From NCBI GenBank assembly GCA_018822845.1, contig JAHJJD010000018.1, forward strand, positions 16,607-80,606: a DNA stretch of 64,000 nucleotides, written 5' to 3'. Each line of letters begins with the position of its first letter. Positions within the stretch are counted from its first letter, which is position 1. Source of the DNA: Gammaproteobacteria bacterium. Lineage in GTDB: Bacteria > Pseudomonadota > Gammaproteobacteria > Thiotrichales > Thiotrichaceae. The notes below the pieces were generated by a model. That model had not been told where the DNA came from, searched no databases, and saw nothing but the letters and a program-made list of their open reading frames with translations. Below are positions 1 through 4,410 of the stretch, one piece after another. The position numbers and the translations under genes were made by a program.

Positions 1-1759
1 TACCACCCGCACCCGTTTCATACAAACCGCCGCCTTTCATCAAAGGTACGACAGACAACATTTTGGCACTGGTGCCCACTTCCATGATCGGGAACAGGTC
101 AGTCAGGTAGTCGCGCAAAATATTGCCGGTAACAGAAATCGTGCTCTTGCCACGAATAATACGTTCCAGACTGAAACGCATCCCGCGCAAGGGTGACATA
201 ATGCAAATATCAACATCGGTCAGGTCATGATCTTTCAGGTAGGTTTTAACCTTCTTGATTAGCTCATACTCATGCGGACGGTATTCATCCAGCCAGAACA
301 CCGCAGGCAATTGGGATTCACGCGCCCGTCTGACTGCCAGCCCCACCCAGTCACGCACTGGCAGGTCTTTGGTCTGACACATACGCCAGATGTCTCCGGC
401 TTCCACGCTTTGCTCAATCAAGACCTTGCCCTGATCGTCGACAATACGCGCCACGCCGTCTTCGGGAATTTCAAAGGTCTTGTCATGCGAACCGTATTCT
501 TCGGCTTTTTGCGCCATCAAACCGACGTTCGGCACAGTGCCCAGTGTCCGGGGGTCGAAAGAACCGTGGGTTTTACAGAAGTTAATGATCTCCTGATAAA
601 TACGCGCAAAGGTACTTTCCGGCATCACCGCCTTGGTATCTTTCAACTGACCTGCCGGGCCATACATTTTGCCGCCATTGCGGATCATGGCTGGCATTGA
701 TGCATCGACGATGACATGGTTCGGAGAATGCAGATTGGAAATGCCTTTGGCTGAATCCACCATCGCCAGTTCCGGGCGATGTTCGTAGCAGGCATGAATA
801 TCGCGCTCAATTTCTTCACGCAACGAGGTCGGCAGCGTGGCAATCTTTTCATACACACTGCTCATGCCGTTGTTGGGGTTGACACCCAGTTCCTTGAACA
901 ACTGAGCGTGTTTTTCAAACAGCTCTTTGTAGAAAATCTTGACGCAGTGACCGAACACAATCGGGTGCGAGACTTTCATCATGGTGGCTTTCACATGCAG
1001 CGAGAACATCACGCCCGTCTGCTTCGCGTCTTCGATCTGCTTTTCATAGAACTCGCACAGCGCTTTTTTGCTCATGAACATGCTGTCGATGATTTCGCCT
1101 TCCAGCAATGACACTTTCGGCTTGAGCACGATGGTTTTGCCGCTCTTGGTCACCAGATCCATGCTGACATCGCAAGCACGATCCAGCGTCAGGCACTTTT
1201 CACTGCTGTAGAAATCACCGTGATGCATGTGTGAAACGTGGGTGCGTGAAGCCTGGCTCCACTCCTTCATTTCATGCGGAAAGGTTTGGGCGTAACGCTT
1301 GACGGCGGCGGGTACGCGACGATCCGAGTTACCTTCACGCAGCACCGGGTTTACTGCACTGCCCAGCACTTTGGAGTAACGGCGCAGAATTTCTTTGTCT
1401 GTTTCTGTTTGCGGGTCTTCGGGGTAATCTGGCAGCGGGTAGCCTGCGGCCTGGAGTTCTTTGACAGTGGAGATCAGTTGCGGCACAGACGCACTAATAT
1501 TGGGCAGCTTGATAATATTGCTATCCGGTTCCTGCGTCAGTTGTGCCATGACCGCCAGCTCATCCGATACCTGTTGTTCTGCTGTCAGATAGTCAGAGAA
1601 CTCGGCAAGAGTACGGGCAGGCAAAGACAAATCACTTTTGCTGATCTCAATGCCCGCACCTGATGCAAAGGTGCGGATAATCGGTAGCAAGGAACAAGTC
1701 GCCAGCAGTGGCGCCTCATCAGTCAATGTGTAAATCACCTTTGGTGTTTCATTATTCAT
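1..1759 (-). CDS. icd: Monomeric NADP-dependent isocitrate dehydrogenase (5' part; gene runs off the window start)
   Basis: Missing from the ORF track because no stop lies in the window. Manual translation from ATG 1759 gives [28 protein letters not shown]...KLPNISAS...[19 protein letters not shown], the hallmark motifs of the monomeric IDH family. Confidence 0.95.
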
Positions 1760-1945
1760 CTGCAATTATTCCTGGAAGCGTTATTGTCTGACAATATTAT
1801 ATAAAACCCTTAATAATCGCCACAAAATCCGCACGAAGTAATGCAAATTGTCGACATTGTACTGTTTTGATGCTTTGTTGCGGCGCACATAAATATTCCT
1901 GTAATATTCTGACCTCTTTTCTTGGTTTTGTTGGATCATCAGGGT

Positions 1946-3697
1946 ATGGCAGGACAGGCTTTGCAAATCAATCACCTTGCACGTGGCATTGCCACCACCA
2001 TCCTGCAAGGCTTCAACCGTCACTTTGAAATTTTCCAGCGGATTACTGCCGGGGCGCGGCAACGCTTTGAAGATGCCGACTGGCAGGCTGTACAACTGGC
2101 TTCGCGCGAACGCATCGTGTTGTACGATCGCCGCATCAAGGAAACCATTGCGCTGGTGCGCGACCTGTACGAAATCAAGGAAATCGACCCGGAACTCTGG
2201 CGTGAAGTGAAACACTGCTACATGCGCATGCTGCTGGATCACCAGCAGCCGGAACTGGCGGAAACCTTCTATACCTCGGTATTTTGCCGCCAGTTTCCCC
2301 GCCAGTATTACACCAATAACTGGATATTCATCCGCAGCTCAATTTCAACGGAGTACATCGATTCCGAAGAAACCAGCTATGTCGCCTACTACCCGCACGC
2401 AATTGGCCTGCGTGAAGCCATTACCCGCATTCTGGATAACGCCGGTTTCACCCTGCCGTTTGAAAATCTGGAACGTGATTTCCGCAACATGTTCCGTTCG
2501 ATTGTCCAGCACTACCGAGGCAAGGCGGCGCGCAAGGCTCAACTGAACTTCCAGCTTTCCGTCATTCGTCACCCGTTTTTCCGCAACAAGGCGGCCTATA
2601 TCGTCGGGCGCATGATCAACGGGCGGGATGAAATCCCCTTCGCCCTGCCAATACTGAATAATGAAAAGGGCGGCCTGTATATCGATGCCCTGTTGCTGGG
2701 TGAAAAGCAGCTTTCCGTGGTATTCAGCTACTCACAGGCGTATTTCATGATGGAACATCAGGTGCCATCAGCAGTGACCTCATTCCTGCAAAAACTGTTG
2801 CCACGCCGCAATATGTCGGAACTGTATTCCGCCATCGGTTTGCACAAACAGGGCAAGTCGGCGTTTTACCGCGATTTCCTGCACCACCTGAAGCATTCCA
2901 GCGATGAATTCATCACCGCACCGGGGATACGCGGCATGGTCATGATGGTATTCACCCTGCCTTCCTACCCTTATGTGTTCAAGATCATCAAGGACAAGTT
3001 CGCGCCACAGAAAGAATTCACCCGCCAGCAGGTCGAGGAAAAATACCAGTTGGTCAAACGTCACGACCGGGTGGGGCGCATGGCCGACATGCTGGAATAT
3101 TCCAATGTCGCCCTGCCAGAAGAGCGTTTCGATCCAGACTTGTTGCAGGAACTGCGGGATGCCTGTGCCAGCAGCATCAGCTTTGATAGCGGCAACATCG
3201 TGTTCCGCCACGTCTATATGGAACGGCGCATGATTCCGCTGAACATGTTCATTGAAACAGCGGACGACGAAATCCTGGAACGGGTCATCGAAGACTACGG
3301 CAATGCCATCAAGCAACTGGCGGGCGCGAATATTTTCCCCGGCGACTTCCTTTACAAAAACTTCGGGGTTACGCAGTTGGGGCGGGTGGTGTTCTACGAC
3401 TACGACGAAATCAGCTACATGACGGAATGCAATTTCCGCAAGATTCCGCCGCCACGCTTCCCGGAAGACGAGTTCAGATCCGAACCGTGGTACTCAGTGG
3501 AACCGAACGACGTGTTCCCAGAAGAGTTTTCCACGTTCCTGCTGTCTACACCCAAAATCCGCAAGATTTTCATCAAGTACCATAAGGACTTGCTGGATTC
3601 CCGTTACTGGAAGCACAAGCAGGAAAATATCCAGGCGGGCATGTACGAAGACGTGTTTCCATACCCGCAGGAATTGCGTTTCAAACGCAAGGTCTGA
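1946..3697 (+). CDS. aceK: Isocitrate dehydrogenase kinase/phosphatase
   Basis: APGIRGMVMMVFTLP ATP-binding motif, IFPGDFLYKNFGVT and VVFYDYDEI motifs, PFFRNKAAY. ATG 1946 preferred over the track's TTG 1922. Confidence 0.95.
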   Translation: MAGQALQINHLARGIATTILQGFNRHFEIFQRITAGARQRFEDADWQAVQLASRERIVLYDRRIKETIALVRDLYEIKEIDPELWREVKHCYMRMLLDHQQPELAETFYTSVFCRQFPRQYYTNNWIFIRSSISTEYIDSEETSYVAYYPHAIGLREAITRILDNAGFTLPFENLERDFRNMFRSIVQHYRGKAARKAQLNFQLSVIRHPFFRNKAAYIVGRMINGRDEIPFALPILNNEKGGLYIDALLLGEKQLSVVFSYSQAYFMMEHQVPSAVTSFLQKLLPRRNMSELYSAIGLHKQGKSAFYRDFLHHLKHSSDEFITAPGIRGMVMMVFTLPSYPYVFKIIKDKFAPQKEFTRQQVEEKYQLVKRHDRVGRMADMLEYSNVALPEERFDPDLLQELRDACASSISFDSGNIVFRHVYMERRMIPLNMFIETADDEILERVIEDYGNAIKQLAGANIFPGDFLYKNFGVTQLGRVVFYDYDEISYMTECNFRKIPPPRFPEDEFRSEPWYSVEPNDVFPEEFSTFLLSTPKIRKIFIKYHKDLLDSRYWKHKQENIQAGMYEDVFPYPQELRFKRKV

Positions 3698-3702
3698 ACG
3701 GT

Positions 3703-4326
3703 TTAGCGGTATTCCACCAAATCATCGAGTGACTGGCGCAGGCGGGGCGTTTGTTCGCCTGCGCGATAGCCAAATGCTACGACAACGGCAACGCCATACT
3801 GCTGCGTGTCAACATCCAGCACCGCTTCCACGCCGGGCTTGGAGAAACCTTCAATTGGGCAGGAATCAATCCCCATACTGGCCGCGCCTGTCATCATGTT
3901 CGCCAGCGCCAGGTAACATTGCTTGGAACTCCAGGCAAAGGTATTGATGTAAGGCGCAATTTCAGTCTCGCTATGGGCAGCGTAACGCGCCAGATAAGCA
4001 TCCTGCGCATCCTGCGGCAGACCACGACGCCCGAACAGACGCTTGACGTAATCACTGCCCGGCTCCACCGCTGACGTTTTCGCCAGAATCACCACCACAT
4101 GACTGCTCTCGGTGATTTGCGGCTGGTTCCAGCAGGCTTCACGCAGTTTTCCGCGTAATTCAGGGGTTTGCACAACCACAAAATGCCAGTGCTCCATACC
4201 GAAAGAAGAAGGCGACAAACGCCCGAACTCCAGAATCTGCTGGAAATCCTCAGCGGGTATCTTGCGCTGTGGATCAAATTTCTTGCAGGCATGGCGGAAA
4301 GACATCGCTTGCATGAATGGCTGCAT
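3703..4326 (-). CDS. Nitroreductase family NAD(P)H-dependent flavin oxidoreductase
   Basis: RHACKKFD, LSPSSFGMEHWHF and GIDSCPIEGF motifs of the NfsB-like nitroreductase fold. Confidence 0.9.
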   Translation of the reverse strand: MQPFMQAMSFRHACKKFDPQRKIPAEDFQQILEFGRLSPSSFGMEHWHFVVVQTPELRGKLREACWNQPQITESSHVVVILAKTSAVEPGSDYVKRLFGRRGLPQDAQDAYLARYAAHSETEIAPYINTFAWSSKQCYLALANMMTGAASMGIDSCPIEGFSKPGVEAVLDVDTQQYGVAVVVAFGYRAGEQTPRLRQSLDDLVEYR

Positions 4327-4410
4327 AATGAAAACTCCTTAACTTAAACCGGGTTGGTAAATGCGCTACAGTATAGCTACTCCCTCACCGTCAGGAACAG
4401 GATATACAGA

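What the first reader, a model, noticed from the sequence alone, without database searches (positions are those of the whole stretch)
1..3697. aceK is divergently paired with a monomeric isocitrate dehydrogenase
Seen: the gene sharing a 186-nt divergent spacer with aceK encodes the monomeric IDH family, with the isocitrate-binding Ser of [16 protein letters not shown] at codon 134. Known: characterised AceK substrates are homodimeric E. coli-type ICDs, and in Pseudomonas aeruginosa the monomeric IDH is the isoenzyme not controlled by AceK. Inference: either this AceK phosphorylates a monomeric IDH, which would be a new substrate class, or the pair is only co-regulated at the TCA/glyoxylate branch point while the true substrate lies elsewhere.
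Basis: partly seen in the sequence, partly recalled or inferred. Interest (0 to 1): 0.55.

Follow-up and report, generated by a model that had tools for sequence, protein, structure and literature searches.

The report
aceK paired with odd monomeric IDH
In this Thiothrix genome the kinase gene aceK does sit back-to-back with a single-chain isocitrate dehydrogenase gene, but the kinase's usual two-chain target is encoded elsewhere, so the neighbour is most likely a co-regulated, kinase-insensitive isoenzyme, one whose cofactor pocket looks NAD-type rather than NADP-type.

Summary
aceK (1946-3697, +) and a monomeric IDH gene, here called idh1 (1759 down to beyond the window start, -), are divergent across a 186-nt spacer, and Ser134 lies in [16 protein letters not shown].

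- The genome also has an E. coli/P. aeruginosa-type dimeric icd with the phospho-serine kept. A second, canonical monomeric idh2 follows it.
- Across 81 Thiotrichaceae genomes aceK tracks the dimeric ICD, not the monomeric IDH.
- No aceK genome with a monomeric IDH as its only IDH was found.
- idh1 has no insert relative to P. aeruginosa IDH, which AceK does not phosphorylate in vitro.
- AceK's substrate-recognition loop is unchanged compared with sister genera that lack idh1.

New points:
- idh1 belongs to a derived clade in which the NADP-specifying Lys588/His589/Arg600 are Val/Leu/Ser. This predicts NAD or dual cofactor use.
- The spacer carries two conserved palindromes of the type ATTGTCGACAAT. 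The same motif marks mqo-aceA, an actP-like permease operon and a GntR/FCD-prpBC operon. aceK and idh1 therefore belong to a C2/C3-assimilation regulon.
- In sister genera aceK's divergent partner is a short NAD-type Iso_dh gene.

This is moderately interesting.

The parts
1..1759 (-). idh1: monomeric (type III) isocitrate dehydrogenase, N-terminal 586 codons. The gene runs on beyond the window start to C125:16098 and is 756 aa in all.
   Evidence: PF03971 and TIGR00178. Full length. Substrate and metal residues are intact, while AvIDH Lys588/His589/Arg600 are Val590/Leu591/Ser602.
1760..1945 (.). 186-nt divergent control region between idh1 and aceK.
   Evidence: Alignment of nine Thiothrix species shows conserved islands in otherwise variable sequence.
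1783..1795 (.). Palindrome 1, ATTGTCTGACAAT (ATTGT-N3-ACAAT): a GntR-type operator candidate.
   Evidence: The half-sites are invariant in 9 species. The site is unique in the genome.
1847..1858 (.). Palindrome 2, ATTGTCGACATT: one mismatch from ATTGTCGACAAT.
   Evidence: Conserved in 9 species, and exact in 4 of them. The exact motif occurs 3 times in the genome against 0.16 expected, before GntR/FCD-prpBC, mqo-aceA and an actP-like operon. The same targets recur in 5 other genomes.
1874..1909 (+). Conserved block TTTGTTGCGGCGCACATAAATATTCCTGTAATATT just upstream of aceK: probably the aceK promoter or another protein site.
   Evidence: Near-invariant in the nine-species alignment. No function was tested.
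1946..3697 (+). aceK: bifunctional isocitrate dehydrogenase kinase/phosphatase, 583 aa, single copy.
   Evidence: The FYDYDE catalytic motif is kept, and 21 of 27 residues of the substrate-recognition loop are identical to E. coli (my count from the printed alignment).

Best explanation
aceK and idh1 form a conserved divergent two-gene unit of Thiothrix sensu stricto. It is driven from one 186-nt control region with two GntR-type palindromic operators. The same operators mark the isocitrate lyase (mqo-aceA), acetate-permease-like and methylcitrate (GntR/FCD-prpBC) operons. The unit is therefore induced as part of C2/C3 assimilation. AceK's substrate is the E. coli/P. aeruginosa-type homodimeric NADP-ICD encoded on another contig (C79:10104-11360, Ser115), not idh1. 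idh1 is an AceK-insensitive isoenzyme from a derived clade of monomeric IDHs that has lost the 2'-phosphate-binding Lys588/His589/Arg600 (now Val/Leu/Ser), so it probably uses NAD+ or both cofactors.

Proposed working: on acetate-type substrates AceK switches off the NADP-ICD so that isocitrate reaches isocitrate lyase. The co-induced idh1 carries the residual oxidative flux with a different cofactor.

Shown here: gene identities, copy numbers, co-occurrence, the residue changes, and the conserved operators with their shared targets. Inferred: the kinase target, the cofactor preference, the identity of the regulator, and the physiological logic.
For: Alternative substrate present:
- The dimeric icd scores NF005425 768 bits.
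- It aligns without a gap over residues 3-418 to P. aeruginosa ICD 5M2E, with GGGIRSLN Ser115 kept. That enzyme is phosphorylated at Ser115 by AceK (PMC10574006).
- aceA and glcB are present.

Phyletic pattern in 81 family genomes:
- aceK occurs only in the five genera that have dimeric ICD.
- It was not found in three genera (24 genomes) that have monomeric IDH but no dimeric ICD.
- Four aceK+ genomes at least 92% complete have no monomeric IDH.

Class-level sample:
- 25 of 33 aceK+ genomes have no monomeric IDH.
- 30 have an ICD-type gene, and in 10 of them it lies beside aceK.

No sign of retargeting:
- idh1 aligns with a net length difference of one residue to PaIDH 6G3U, which AceK does not phosphorylate.
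- The AceK recognition loop is the same with and without the idh1 neighbour.

Cofactor pocket:
- The alignment to 1ITW is gapless and gives K588V, H589L, R600S.
- The changes are invariant in all idh1 orthologues.
- His589 and Arg600 are the NADP determinants (PMC4360740, PMC8287583).
- The Leu-type IDHs form a supported clade nested among NADP-type ones.

Co-regulation.
Against: - No experiment exists for this organism, and adjacency to a kinase is a classical hint of a functional link.
- The monomeric IDH mimics the dimer's active-site cleft, and Ser134 is the structural equivalent of Ser113, so phosphorylation is not physically absurd.
- Co-inducing an insensitive IDH together with the kinase that shuts off ICD looks counter-productive unless idh1 has low isocitrate affinity or is allosterically controlled. 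That was not tested.
- Ser rather than Asp at position 600 does not repel NADP, so the cofactor call is uncertain.
- The one-mismatch operator hits are only about 3.5-fold above expectation, so some listed regulon members may be chance.
- The regulator assignment rests on one autoregulatory-looking site plus one gene order (G037).
Confidence: 0.7

Rival explanations
1. AceK phosphorylates the monomeric IDH1 at Ser134 (alone or in addition to the dimeric ICD). Monomeric IDHs would then be a new AceK substrate class, and the divergent pair a kinase-substrate cassette.
For: The adjacency is conserved in 8 of 9 closest species loci, plus the window. Ser134 is equivalent to the phospho-serine site. 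In sister genera the same position beside aceK is held by a short NAD-type Iso_dh, a class that AceK can phosphorylate in Stenotrophomonas (PMC12707098). aceK may therefore tend to sit beside substrates.
Against: P. aeruginosa and A. baumannii monomeric IDHs are not phosphorylated. idh1 has no insert relative to PaIDH. The AceK recognition loop is identical to that of relatives without idh1. aceK never occurs with a monomeric IDH as the only IDH, whereas monomer-only genera lack aceK. aceK persists in Thiothrix species that lack idh1 or have it elsewhere.
Confidence: 0.06
2. The adjacency is a neutral product of genome rearrangement. aceK and idh1 are independently regulated and functionally unrelated beyond sharing a pathway.
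For: The flanking genes are unrelated housekeeping genes. The pairing is confined to one genus and is broken in some of its species (G025, G060). The promoter scan is not above chance.
Against: Two operator palindromes in the spacer are conserved across nine species while the surrounding sequence diverges. The same 12-mer is found upstream of aceK in 13 sister-genus loci and upstream of idh1 even where aceK is not adjacent (G025). It marks aceA and other C2/C3 genes in six genomes.
Confidence: 0.1
3. The co-regulation and the ICD target hold, but idh1 is still an ordinary NADP-specific IDH, a plain redundant paralogue as in Pseudomonas. The Leu/Ser changes would be compensated by neighbouring basic residues.
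For: idh1 is about 70% identical to NADP-type enzymes. Lys650 and Arg652 flank position 651, and there is no acidic residue at position 602. All databases label the clade NADP-dependent.
Against: His589 and Arg600 are reported as absolutely conserved in monomeric NADP-IDHs, and swapping them flips specificity in both directions (PMC4360740, PMC8287583, PMC10574006). The first motif, GTAPVL, resembles the Campylobacter NAD-IDH motif GTAPML, which I read from the mutagenesis primers quoted in PMC4360740. In the family genomes sampled, every genome with a Leu-type IDH also keeps an NADP-type IDH.
Confidence: 0.14

Closest known systems
Pseudomonas aeruginosa / P. putida branch point: ICD (dimeric, AceK-controlled), IDH (monomeric, AceK-insensitive), AceK, ICL
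   Same: The same set of enzymes is present: dimeric NADP-ICD with Ser115, monomeric IDH, one AceK, ICL and malate synthase G. The ICD is almost collinear with PaICD. As in Pseudomonas, icd and a monomeric idh are neighbours (icd-idh2 on C79).
   Different: Here there are two monomeric IDHs. aceK is paired with one of them instead of standing alone. That copy has lost the NADP-specificity residues, and the pair shares an operator with aceA.
E. coli aceBAK operon and AceK-ICD phosphorylation switch (PDB 3LCB/3LC6)
   Same: AceK has the same two domains, the catalytic DYDE motif and a largely conserved substrate-recognition loop. aceK is transcriptionally tied to isocitrate lyase, here through a shared operator rather than one operon.
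   Different: aceK is not in an operon with aceA or aceB. Malate synthase is the G type and lies elsewhere. The regulator is probably GntR/FCD-type, not IclR.
Monomeric NAD+-specific IDHs of Campylobacter (CaIDH, CcIDH; PMC4360740)
   Same: Leu stands at the His589 position within a GTAP(V/M)L motif, and Arg600 is lost.
   Different: Ser rather than Asp stands at position 600. idh1 is about 70% identical to NADP-type enzymes and nests among them in the tree, whereas CaIDH is under 50% identical and treated as a separate, ancestral subgroup. This would be an independent change of the pocket. Cofactor use here is untested.
Stenotrophomonas / Xanthomonas AceK acting on a short type I NAD-IDH (PMC12707098)
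   Same: It shows that AceK partners vary and that an aceK genome can also hold a monomeric IDH that is not the reported substrate.
   Different: This genome has no short Iso_dh at all: only leuB and icd were found. Its sister genera do have one, and it lies directly beside aceK.

Membership tests
AceK (isocitrate dehydrogenase kinase/phosphatase) | Regulatory domain plus kinase/phosphatase domain, full length, above the curated equivalog cut-off | tested here: met
   PF20423 378 bits and PF06315 408 bits. NF002804 829 bits against a cut-off of 488.
AceK (isocitrate dehydrogenase kinase/phosphatase) | Catalytic Asp477 motif and substrate-recognition loop (E. coli residues 484-510; residue numbers from memory) | tested here: met
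   FYDYDE is kept. The loop is 21/27 identical to E. coli in the printed alignment (my count) and conserved in the family.
AceK (isocitrate dehydrogenase kinase/phosphatase) | Phosphorylates and dephosphorylates an IDH | not testable with these tools
   Needs an enzyme assay.
Monomeric (type III) isocitrate dehydrogenase | Single chain of about 740 aa matching TIGR00178/PF03971, with the isocitrate and metal ligands | tested here: met
   756 aa. TIGR00178 1022 bits on the partial protein. Ser134, Asn137, Arg141, Arg147, Lys257, Asp352, Tyr422, Arg549 and Asp550 are all present.
NADP-specific monomeric IDH (AvIDH type) | His589 and Arg600 (with Lys588) binding the 2'-phosphate | tested here: not met
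   They are Val590/Leu591/Ser602 in a gapless alignment to 1ITW, and invariant in orthologues. idh2 has Lys/His/Arg.
Monomeric NAD-specific IDH (Campylobacter type) | Leu at position 589 and Asp at position 600; a separate subgroup under 50% identical to NADP-type enzymes | tested here: not met
   Leu is present, but position 600 is Ser. The protein nests within NADP-type IDHs. It may work like an NAD-IDH but is not a member of that subgroup.
AceK substrate of the E. coli ICD type (applied to the dimeric icd on C79) | Phospho-serine in GGGIRSLN and an AceK recognition segment of proteobacterial length, without the Bacillus-type insertion | tested here: met
   Ser115 is kept. The alignment over residues 3-418 to PaICD 5M2E, a proven substrate, has no gap. 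The ARS is defined in PMC3521221.
AceK substrate (applied to idh1) | A P-loop and ARS-like elements recognised by AceK | tested here: not met
   PaIDH2 is reported to lack both and is not phosphorylated. idh1 differs from PaIDH 6G3U by a net single residue in length, so it has gained no such element. This is indirect and based on sequence only.

The most novel reading that the evidence does not exclude
In Thiotrichaceae aceK is hard-wired, through a shared GntR-type operator, to an NAD-linked IDH isoenzyme. That isoenzyme is a short NAD-type Iso_dh in Thiolinea and related genera and was replaced non-orthologously in Thiothrix sensu stricto by a monomeric IDH that independently lost its NADP determinants. 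Induction of the unit would then swap the cofactor at the isocitrate branch point (NADP-ICD phosphorylated off, NAD-IDH expressed) rather than only throttle flux. The more radical reading, that AceK itself phosphorylates the monomeric enzyme, is not excluded, but I put it near 0.06.
Probability: 0.35. Interest if true: 0.6.

Novelty: new variant of a known kind. Interest (0 to 1): 0.42.

Why it matters
The AceK/ICD switch is the textbook case of bacterial metabolic control by phosphorylation. This locus does not overturn it, because the classical substrate is present. It does show a lineage in which the kinase gene is transcriptionally coupled to a second, probably kinase-blind IDH with an altered cofactor pocket. 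If IDH1 is NAD-linked, a whole gammaproteobacterial clade now annotated as NADP-dependent (Thiothrix, Cocleimonas-like genomes, Sedimenticolaceae and Chromatiaceae MAGs) is mislabelled. That would bear on redox budgets in models of sulfur-oxidising mixotrophs, and it would be a second, independent NADP-to-NAD shift within monomeric IDHs. The conserved 12-bp operator also gives a testable regulon for acetate and propionate use in Thiothrix, a genus relevant to activated-sludge bulking.

Tried and rejected
- I looked for a regulator gene next to the pair and found none. The flanks are a nitroreductase, CysZ, TsaB-like, a DinG-type helicase, YgfZ-like and a PpiC-type rotamase.
- The sigma-70 and terminator scan of 1700-4400 gave counts no higher than shuffles. 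I discarded it as evidence.
- I tried reading the conserved block at 1874-1909 as a sigma-54 promoter by eye. The GG/GC spacing does not fit.
- I considered Arg649 (Pro651 in idh1) as a fourth cofactor marker. I dropped it because canonical NADP-type IDHs of the family also vary there.
- Literature searches for Thiothrix IDH or glyoxylate enzymology and for a GntR-type PrpR operator returned nothing usable.
- Searches of earlier scan notes found nothing on this locus.
- I made no structure prediction or complex modelling: the tools fold single chains only, which would not test kinase-substrate docking.
- The quick tree (LG+G4, SH-aLRT only, midpoint root) has several long-branch Leu-type outliers (P0063, P0088, P0067). 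I therefore do not claim a single origin for all Leu-type IDHs.
Full report
**1. What is there**

The window is G000:C125:16607-80606 of a 4.0-Mb, 99%-complete Thiothrix-type genome. The nearest aceK relatives are Ca. Thiothrix singaporensis, T. caldifontis and T. fructosivorans, at 85-87% identity.

- On the - strand a frame runs from 1759 off the window start. It is a monomeric IDH: PF03971 985 bits, TIGR00178 1022 bits against a cut-off of 950.
- From the whole contig the gene is C125:16098-18365 and encodes 756 aa. I call it idh1.
- [16 protein letters not shown] starts at residue 133, so its Ser is residue 134.
- On the + strand, 1946-3697 encodes a 583-aa AceK: PF20423 + PF06315, NF002804 829 bits, and 527 bits to E. 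coli AceK 3LC6.
- The ATG at 1946 is invariant in nine species, so the spacer 1760-1945 is 186 nt.

**2. Is there another candidate substrate?** Yes.

- PF00180 finds two genes in the genome.
- One is leuB. The other (C79:10104-11360, 418 aa) is an E. coli-type NADP-ICD: NF005425 768 bits, TIGR00183 719 bits.
- This ICD aligns over residues 3-418 without a gap to P. aeruginosa ICD 5M2E, with GGGIRSLN Ser115 kept.
- PaICD is phosphorylated at Ser115 by both PaAceK and EcAceK. The P. aeruginosa monomeric IDH is not, and the authors ascribe this to its lack of a P-loop and an AceK recognition segment (PMC10574006).
- Sixty-one nucleotides downstream of icd, on the same strand, lies a second monomeric IDH. 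This idh2 is 749 aa and 69% identical to idh1, aligned without gaps.
- Isocitrate lyase (C114:2188-3522) and malate synthase G (C52) are present.
- aceK is single-copy.

**3. Phyletic pattern**

Family sample: 81 Thiotrichaceae genomes from eight genera.
- aceK is present in g1 (14/15 plus the window genome), g3 (3/3), g4 (11/15), g5 (15/15) and g7 (7/8).
- It was not found in g2 (0/10), g6 (0/3) or g8 (0/11).
- A dimeric ICD above the TIGR00183 cut-off is present in every genome of g1, g4, g5 and g7 and in 2/3 of g3. It is in none of g2, g6 or g8, although most genomes of those three genera carry a monomeric IDH.
- The only aceK+ genome without a dimeric ICD is 85% complete (G019).
- aceK+ genomes without any monomeric IDH exist: G027, G057, G076 and G079.

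Class sample: 33 further aceK+ genomes from 29 families.
- 25 have no monomeric IDH.
- 30 have an ICD-length Iso_dh gene, and in 10 of them it lies directly beside aceK.
- Two genomes of one unnamed family have instead a short Iso_dh, plus a monomeric IDH 3-4 kb from aceK. This is the gene set of Stenotrophomonas/Xanthomonas, where the short NAD-IDH is the AceK substrate (PMC12707098).
- One genome is ambiguous.
- I found no genome in which aceK coexists with a monomeric IDH as the only IDH.

**4. How conserved is the adjacency?**

- Among 80 aceK loci from species representatives, a divergent monomeric idh lies beside aceK in 8 of the 9 loci with at least 84% aceK identity (Thiothrix sensu stricto).
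- It lies beside aceK in none of the 19 loci at 69-77% identity (other 'Thiothrix', Thiolinea, Thiofilum), and in none of the Arenicellales loci.
- In the genome search sample of the genus, the pair is adjacent in 9 of 16 genomes. idh1 lies elsewhere in two (G025, G060) and is absent in five.
- Independently, some Rhodocyclaceae have aceK divergent from a monomeric idh that is followed at once by the dimeric icd (L066, L071, L072, L075). Others have aceK divergent from icd alone.
- Adjacency of aceK to a monomeric idh therefore recurs, but a dimeric icd is present in every such genome I could check (beside it in those four Rhodocyclaceae loci).

**5. No sign of retargeting**

- idh1 aligns to solved monomeric IDHs essentially end to end. 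Against PaIDH 6G3U it covers 7-739 versus 2-733, and against AvIDH 1ITW 4-739 versus 2-737. It has therefore gained no recognition element.
- The AceK substrate-recognition loop is 21/27 identical to E. coli's (my count from the printed alignment).
- The loop is letter-for-letter the same in the window and in sister-genus loci that lack idh1, such as L019 and L025.

**6. idh1 is not an ordinary NADP-IDH**

- A gapless alignment to 1ITW puts Val590/Leu591/Ser602 at AvIDH Lys588/His589/Arg600. All substrate and metal ligands are intact.
- His589 and Arg600 are described as absolutely conserved in monomeric NADP-IDHs.
- The natural Campylobacter NAD-IDHs have Leu/Asp there, and swapping the pair reverses specificity (PMC4360740; PMC8287583). 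A P. aeruginosa IDH L589/I600 mutant also shifts towards NAD.
- The motif GAGGTAPVLVKQLLEENHLSWDS is invariant in every idh1 orthologue.
- idh2 and the Rhodocyclaceae aceK-adjacent IDHs have the canonical SAPKH...LRWDS motif.
- A region-targeted search shows that T-x-L...S variants are common in Gammaproteobacteria, and those that carry a source name are labelled NADP-dependent or simply isocitrate dehydrogenase.
- In a quick ML tree of 64 sequences, 23 of them form a supported clade (SH-aLRT 99) nested among NADP-type enzymes.
- Within the family genomes sampled, the Leu-type copy never stands alone. It always accompanies an NADP-type monomer or the dimeric ICD.
- I infer NAD+ or dual specificity. 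Ser instead of Asp at position 600 keeps this uncertain.

**7. Co-regulation**

The nine-species alignment of the spacer shows three conserved islands:
- ATTGTCTGACAAT (1783-1795);
- ATTGTCGACATT (1847-1858), which is exact ATTGTCGACAAT in four species;
- a 35-nt block next to aceK.

The exact 12-mer occurs three times in the genome against 0.16 expected:
- 15-27 nt before the likely start of a GntR/FCD regulator that heads prpB-prpC;
- about 90 nt before mqo, which is followed by aceA, with a one-mismatch site just before aceA;
- before a DUF4212 + SSF (actP-like) operon.

One-mismatch sites precede an E2-lpd operon (two sites), nqrA, and phaC/cysJ-like genes. These are only about 3.5-fold over expectation, so I treat them as candidates.

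In five other complete Thiothrix genomes the exact 12-mer occurs only 3-4 times, and the reversed control pattern not at all. It falls:
- before mqo-aceA in 4 of 5;
- before the actP-like operon in all 4 that have it;
- in the aceK-idh1 spacer (G031, G069);
- before idh1 alone where aceK is elsewhere (G025);
- before aceK alone where idh1 is absent (G037).

In G037 aceK is followed on the same strand by the GntR/FCD regulator and prpB. The same exact palindrome lies upstream of aceK in 13 sister-genus loci. It was not found in the Arenicellales, Rhodocyclaceae, Arsukibacterium, Alishewanella or Rheinheimera loci tested. aceK and idh1 are thus each members of a conserved C2/C3 regulon. The regulator assignment is an inference.

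**8. The sister-genus partner**

In T. eikelboomii, Thiolinea disciformis and relatives, the gene divergent from aceK is a 345-aa Iso_dh-family protein.
- Its best, sub-threshold matches are to NAD-IDH models.
- It is closest to IDH3-alpha-type NAD-IDHs.
- It keeps the S-x-N, Tyr, Lys and Asp ligands and has the NAD-type GTAPDIAGK motif.
- The window's genome has no such gene.

The slot beside aceK is therefore held by an NAD-type IDH-like gene in the wider family, and by the Leu/Ser monomeric IDH in Thiothrix sensu stricto.

**9. Verdict**

The exciting reading (a new AceK substrate class) is unlikely, at about 0.06. The pair is best read as a co-regulated unit of the acetate/propionate regulon. 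AceK acts on the distant dimeric ICD, and idh1 serves as a kinase-blind isoenzyme that is probably NAD-linked or dual. The system works like the Pseudomonas ICD/IDH/AceK/ICL branch point, with a new gene arrangement, an extra IDH paralogue and an altered cofactor pocket.

Noticed in passing
L021:4691-5728 (-) and L027:4696-5736 (-); also G005:C13, G013:C15, G021:C17, G028:C27, G034:C5, G040:C24, G046:C19, G063:C41, G077:C24: In sister genera (T. eikelboomii, Thiolinea disciformis and others) aceK is divergently paired with a 345-aa Iso_dh-family gene that reaches no curated equivalog. It has NAD-type GTAPDIAGK and intact isocitrate-type ligands. Since AceK phosphorylates a short NAD-IDH in Stenotrophomonas (PMC12707098), this could be a true kinase-substrate pair.
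   Followed up: partly
G000:C79:10104-13670 (L088:6104-9670): fumarate hydratase, then icd (dimeric), then idh2 (canonical monomeric NADP-type), all on one strand with 61 nt between icd and idh2. The genome thus has three IDH genes. The same icd-idh2 tandem is in G055, and a divergent icd / Leu-type idh pair is in G058.
   Followed up: partly
P0013-P0068; tree: A widespread gammaproteobacterial clade of monomeric IDHs (Cocleimonas, Sedimenticolaceae, Chromatiaceae, Methylophaga and many MAGs) has Leu at the His589 position and Ser/Cys/Gln at the Arg600 position, yet is annotated NADP-dependent. Two members (P0015, P0048) have Leu but keep Arg600.
   Followed up: partly
G000:C59:97861, C114:347 and 1907, C61:18794, C35:37114 and 37167, C93:5266 and 5701, C13:34376: The ATTGTCGACAAT operator family marks the GntR/FCD-prpB-prpC, mqo-aceA and DUF4212+SSF permease operons. 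With one mismatch it also marks E2-lpd, nqrA and phaC/cysJ-like promoters. This is a candidate central-carbon regulon of Thiothrix with a PdhR/FadR-like box.
   Followed up: partly
L066, L071, L072, L075 (Rhodocyclaceae); L055, L064, L067, L068, L070: Betaproteobacterial loci with aceK divergent from a canonical monomeric idh, followed directly by the dimeric icd. In related genomes aceK is divergent from icd alone.
   Followed up: partly
G043:C1:1873151-1873920: In one complete Thiothrix genome the AceK kinase domain matches in two overlapping pieces in different frames, which suggests a frameshifted aceK. That genome has no monomeric IDH but keeps the dimeric ICD.
   Followed up: no
G037:C1:707907-711140: The gene order is palindrome, aceK, GntR/FCD regulator, prpB, all on one strand, in a Thiothrix species that lacks idh1. 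This physically links aceK to the methylcitrate regulator.
   Followed up: partly
L007:5698-6015 and L008:5695-6015: Ca. T. singaporensis and strain SCUT-1 carry an insertion of about 100 nt in the aceK-idh1 spacer. It displaces the second palindrome but keeps it intact.
   Followed up: no
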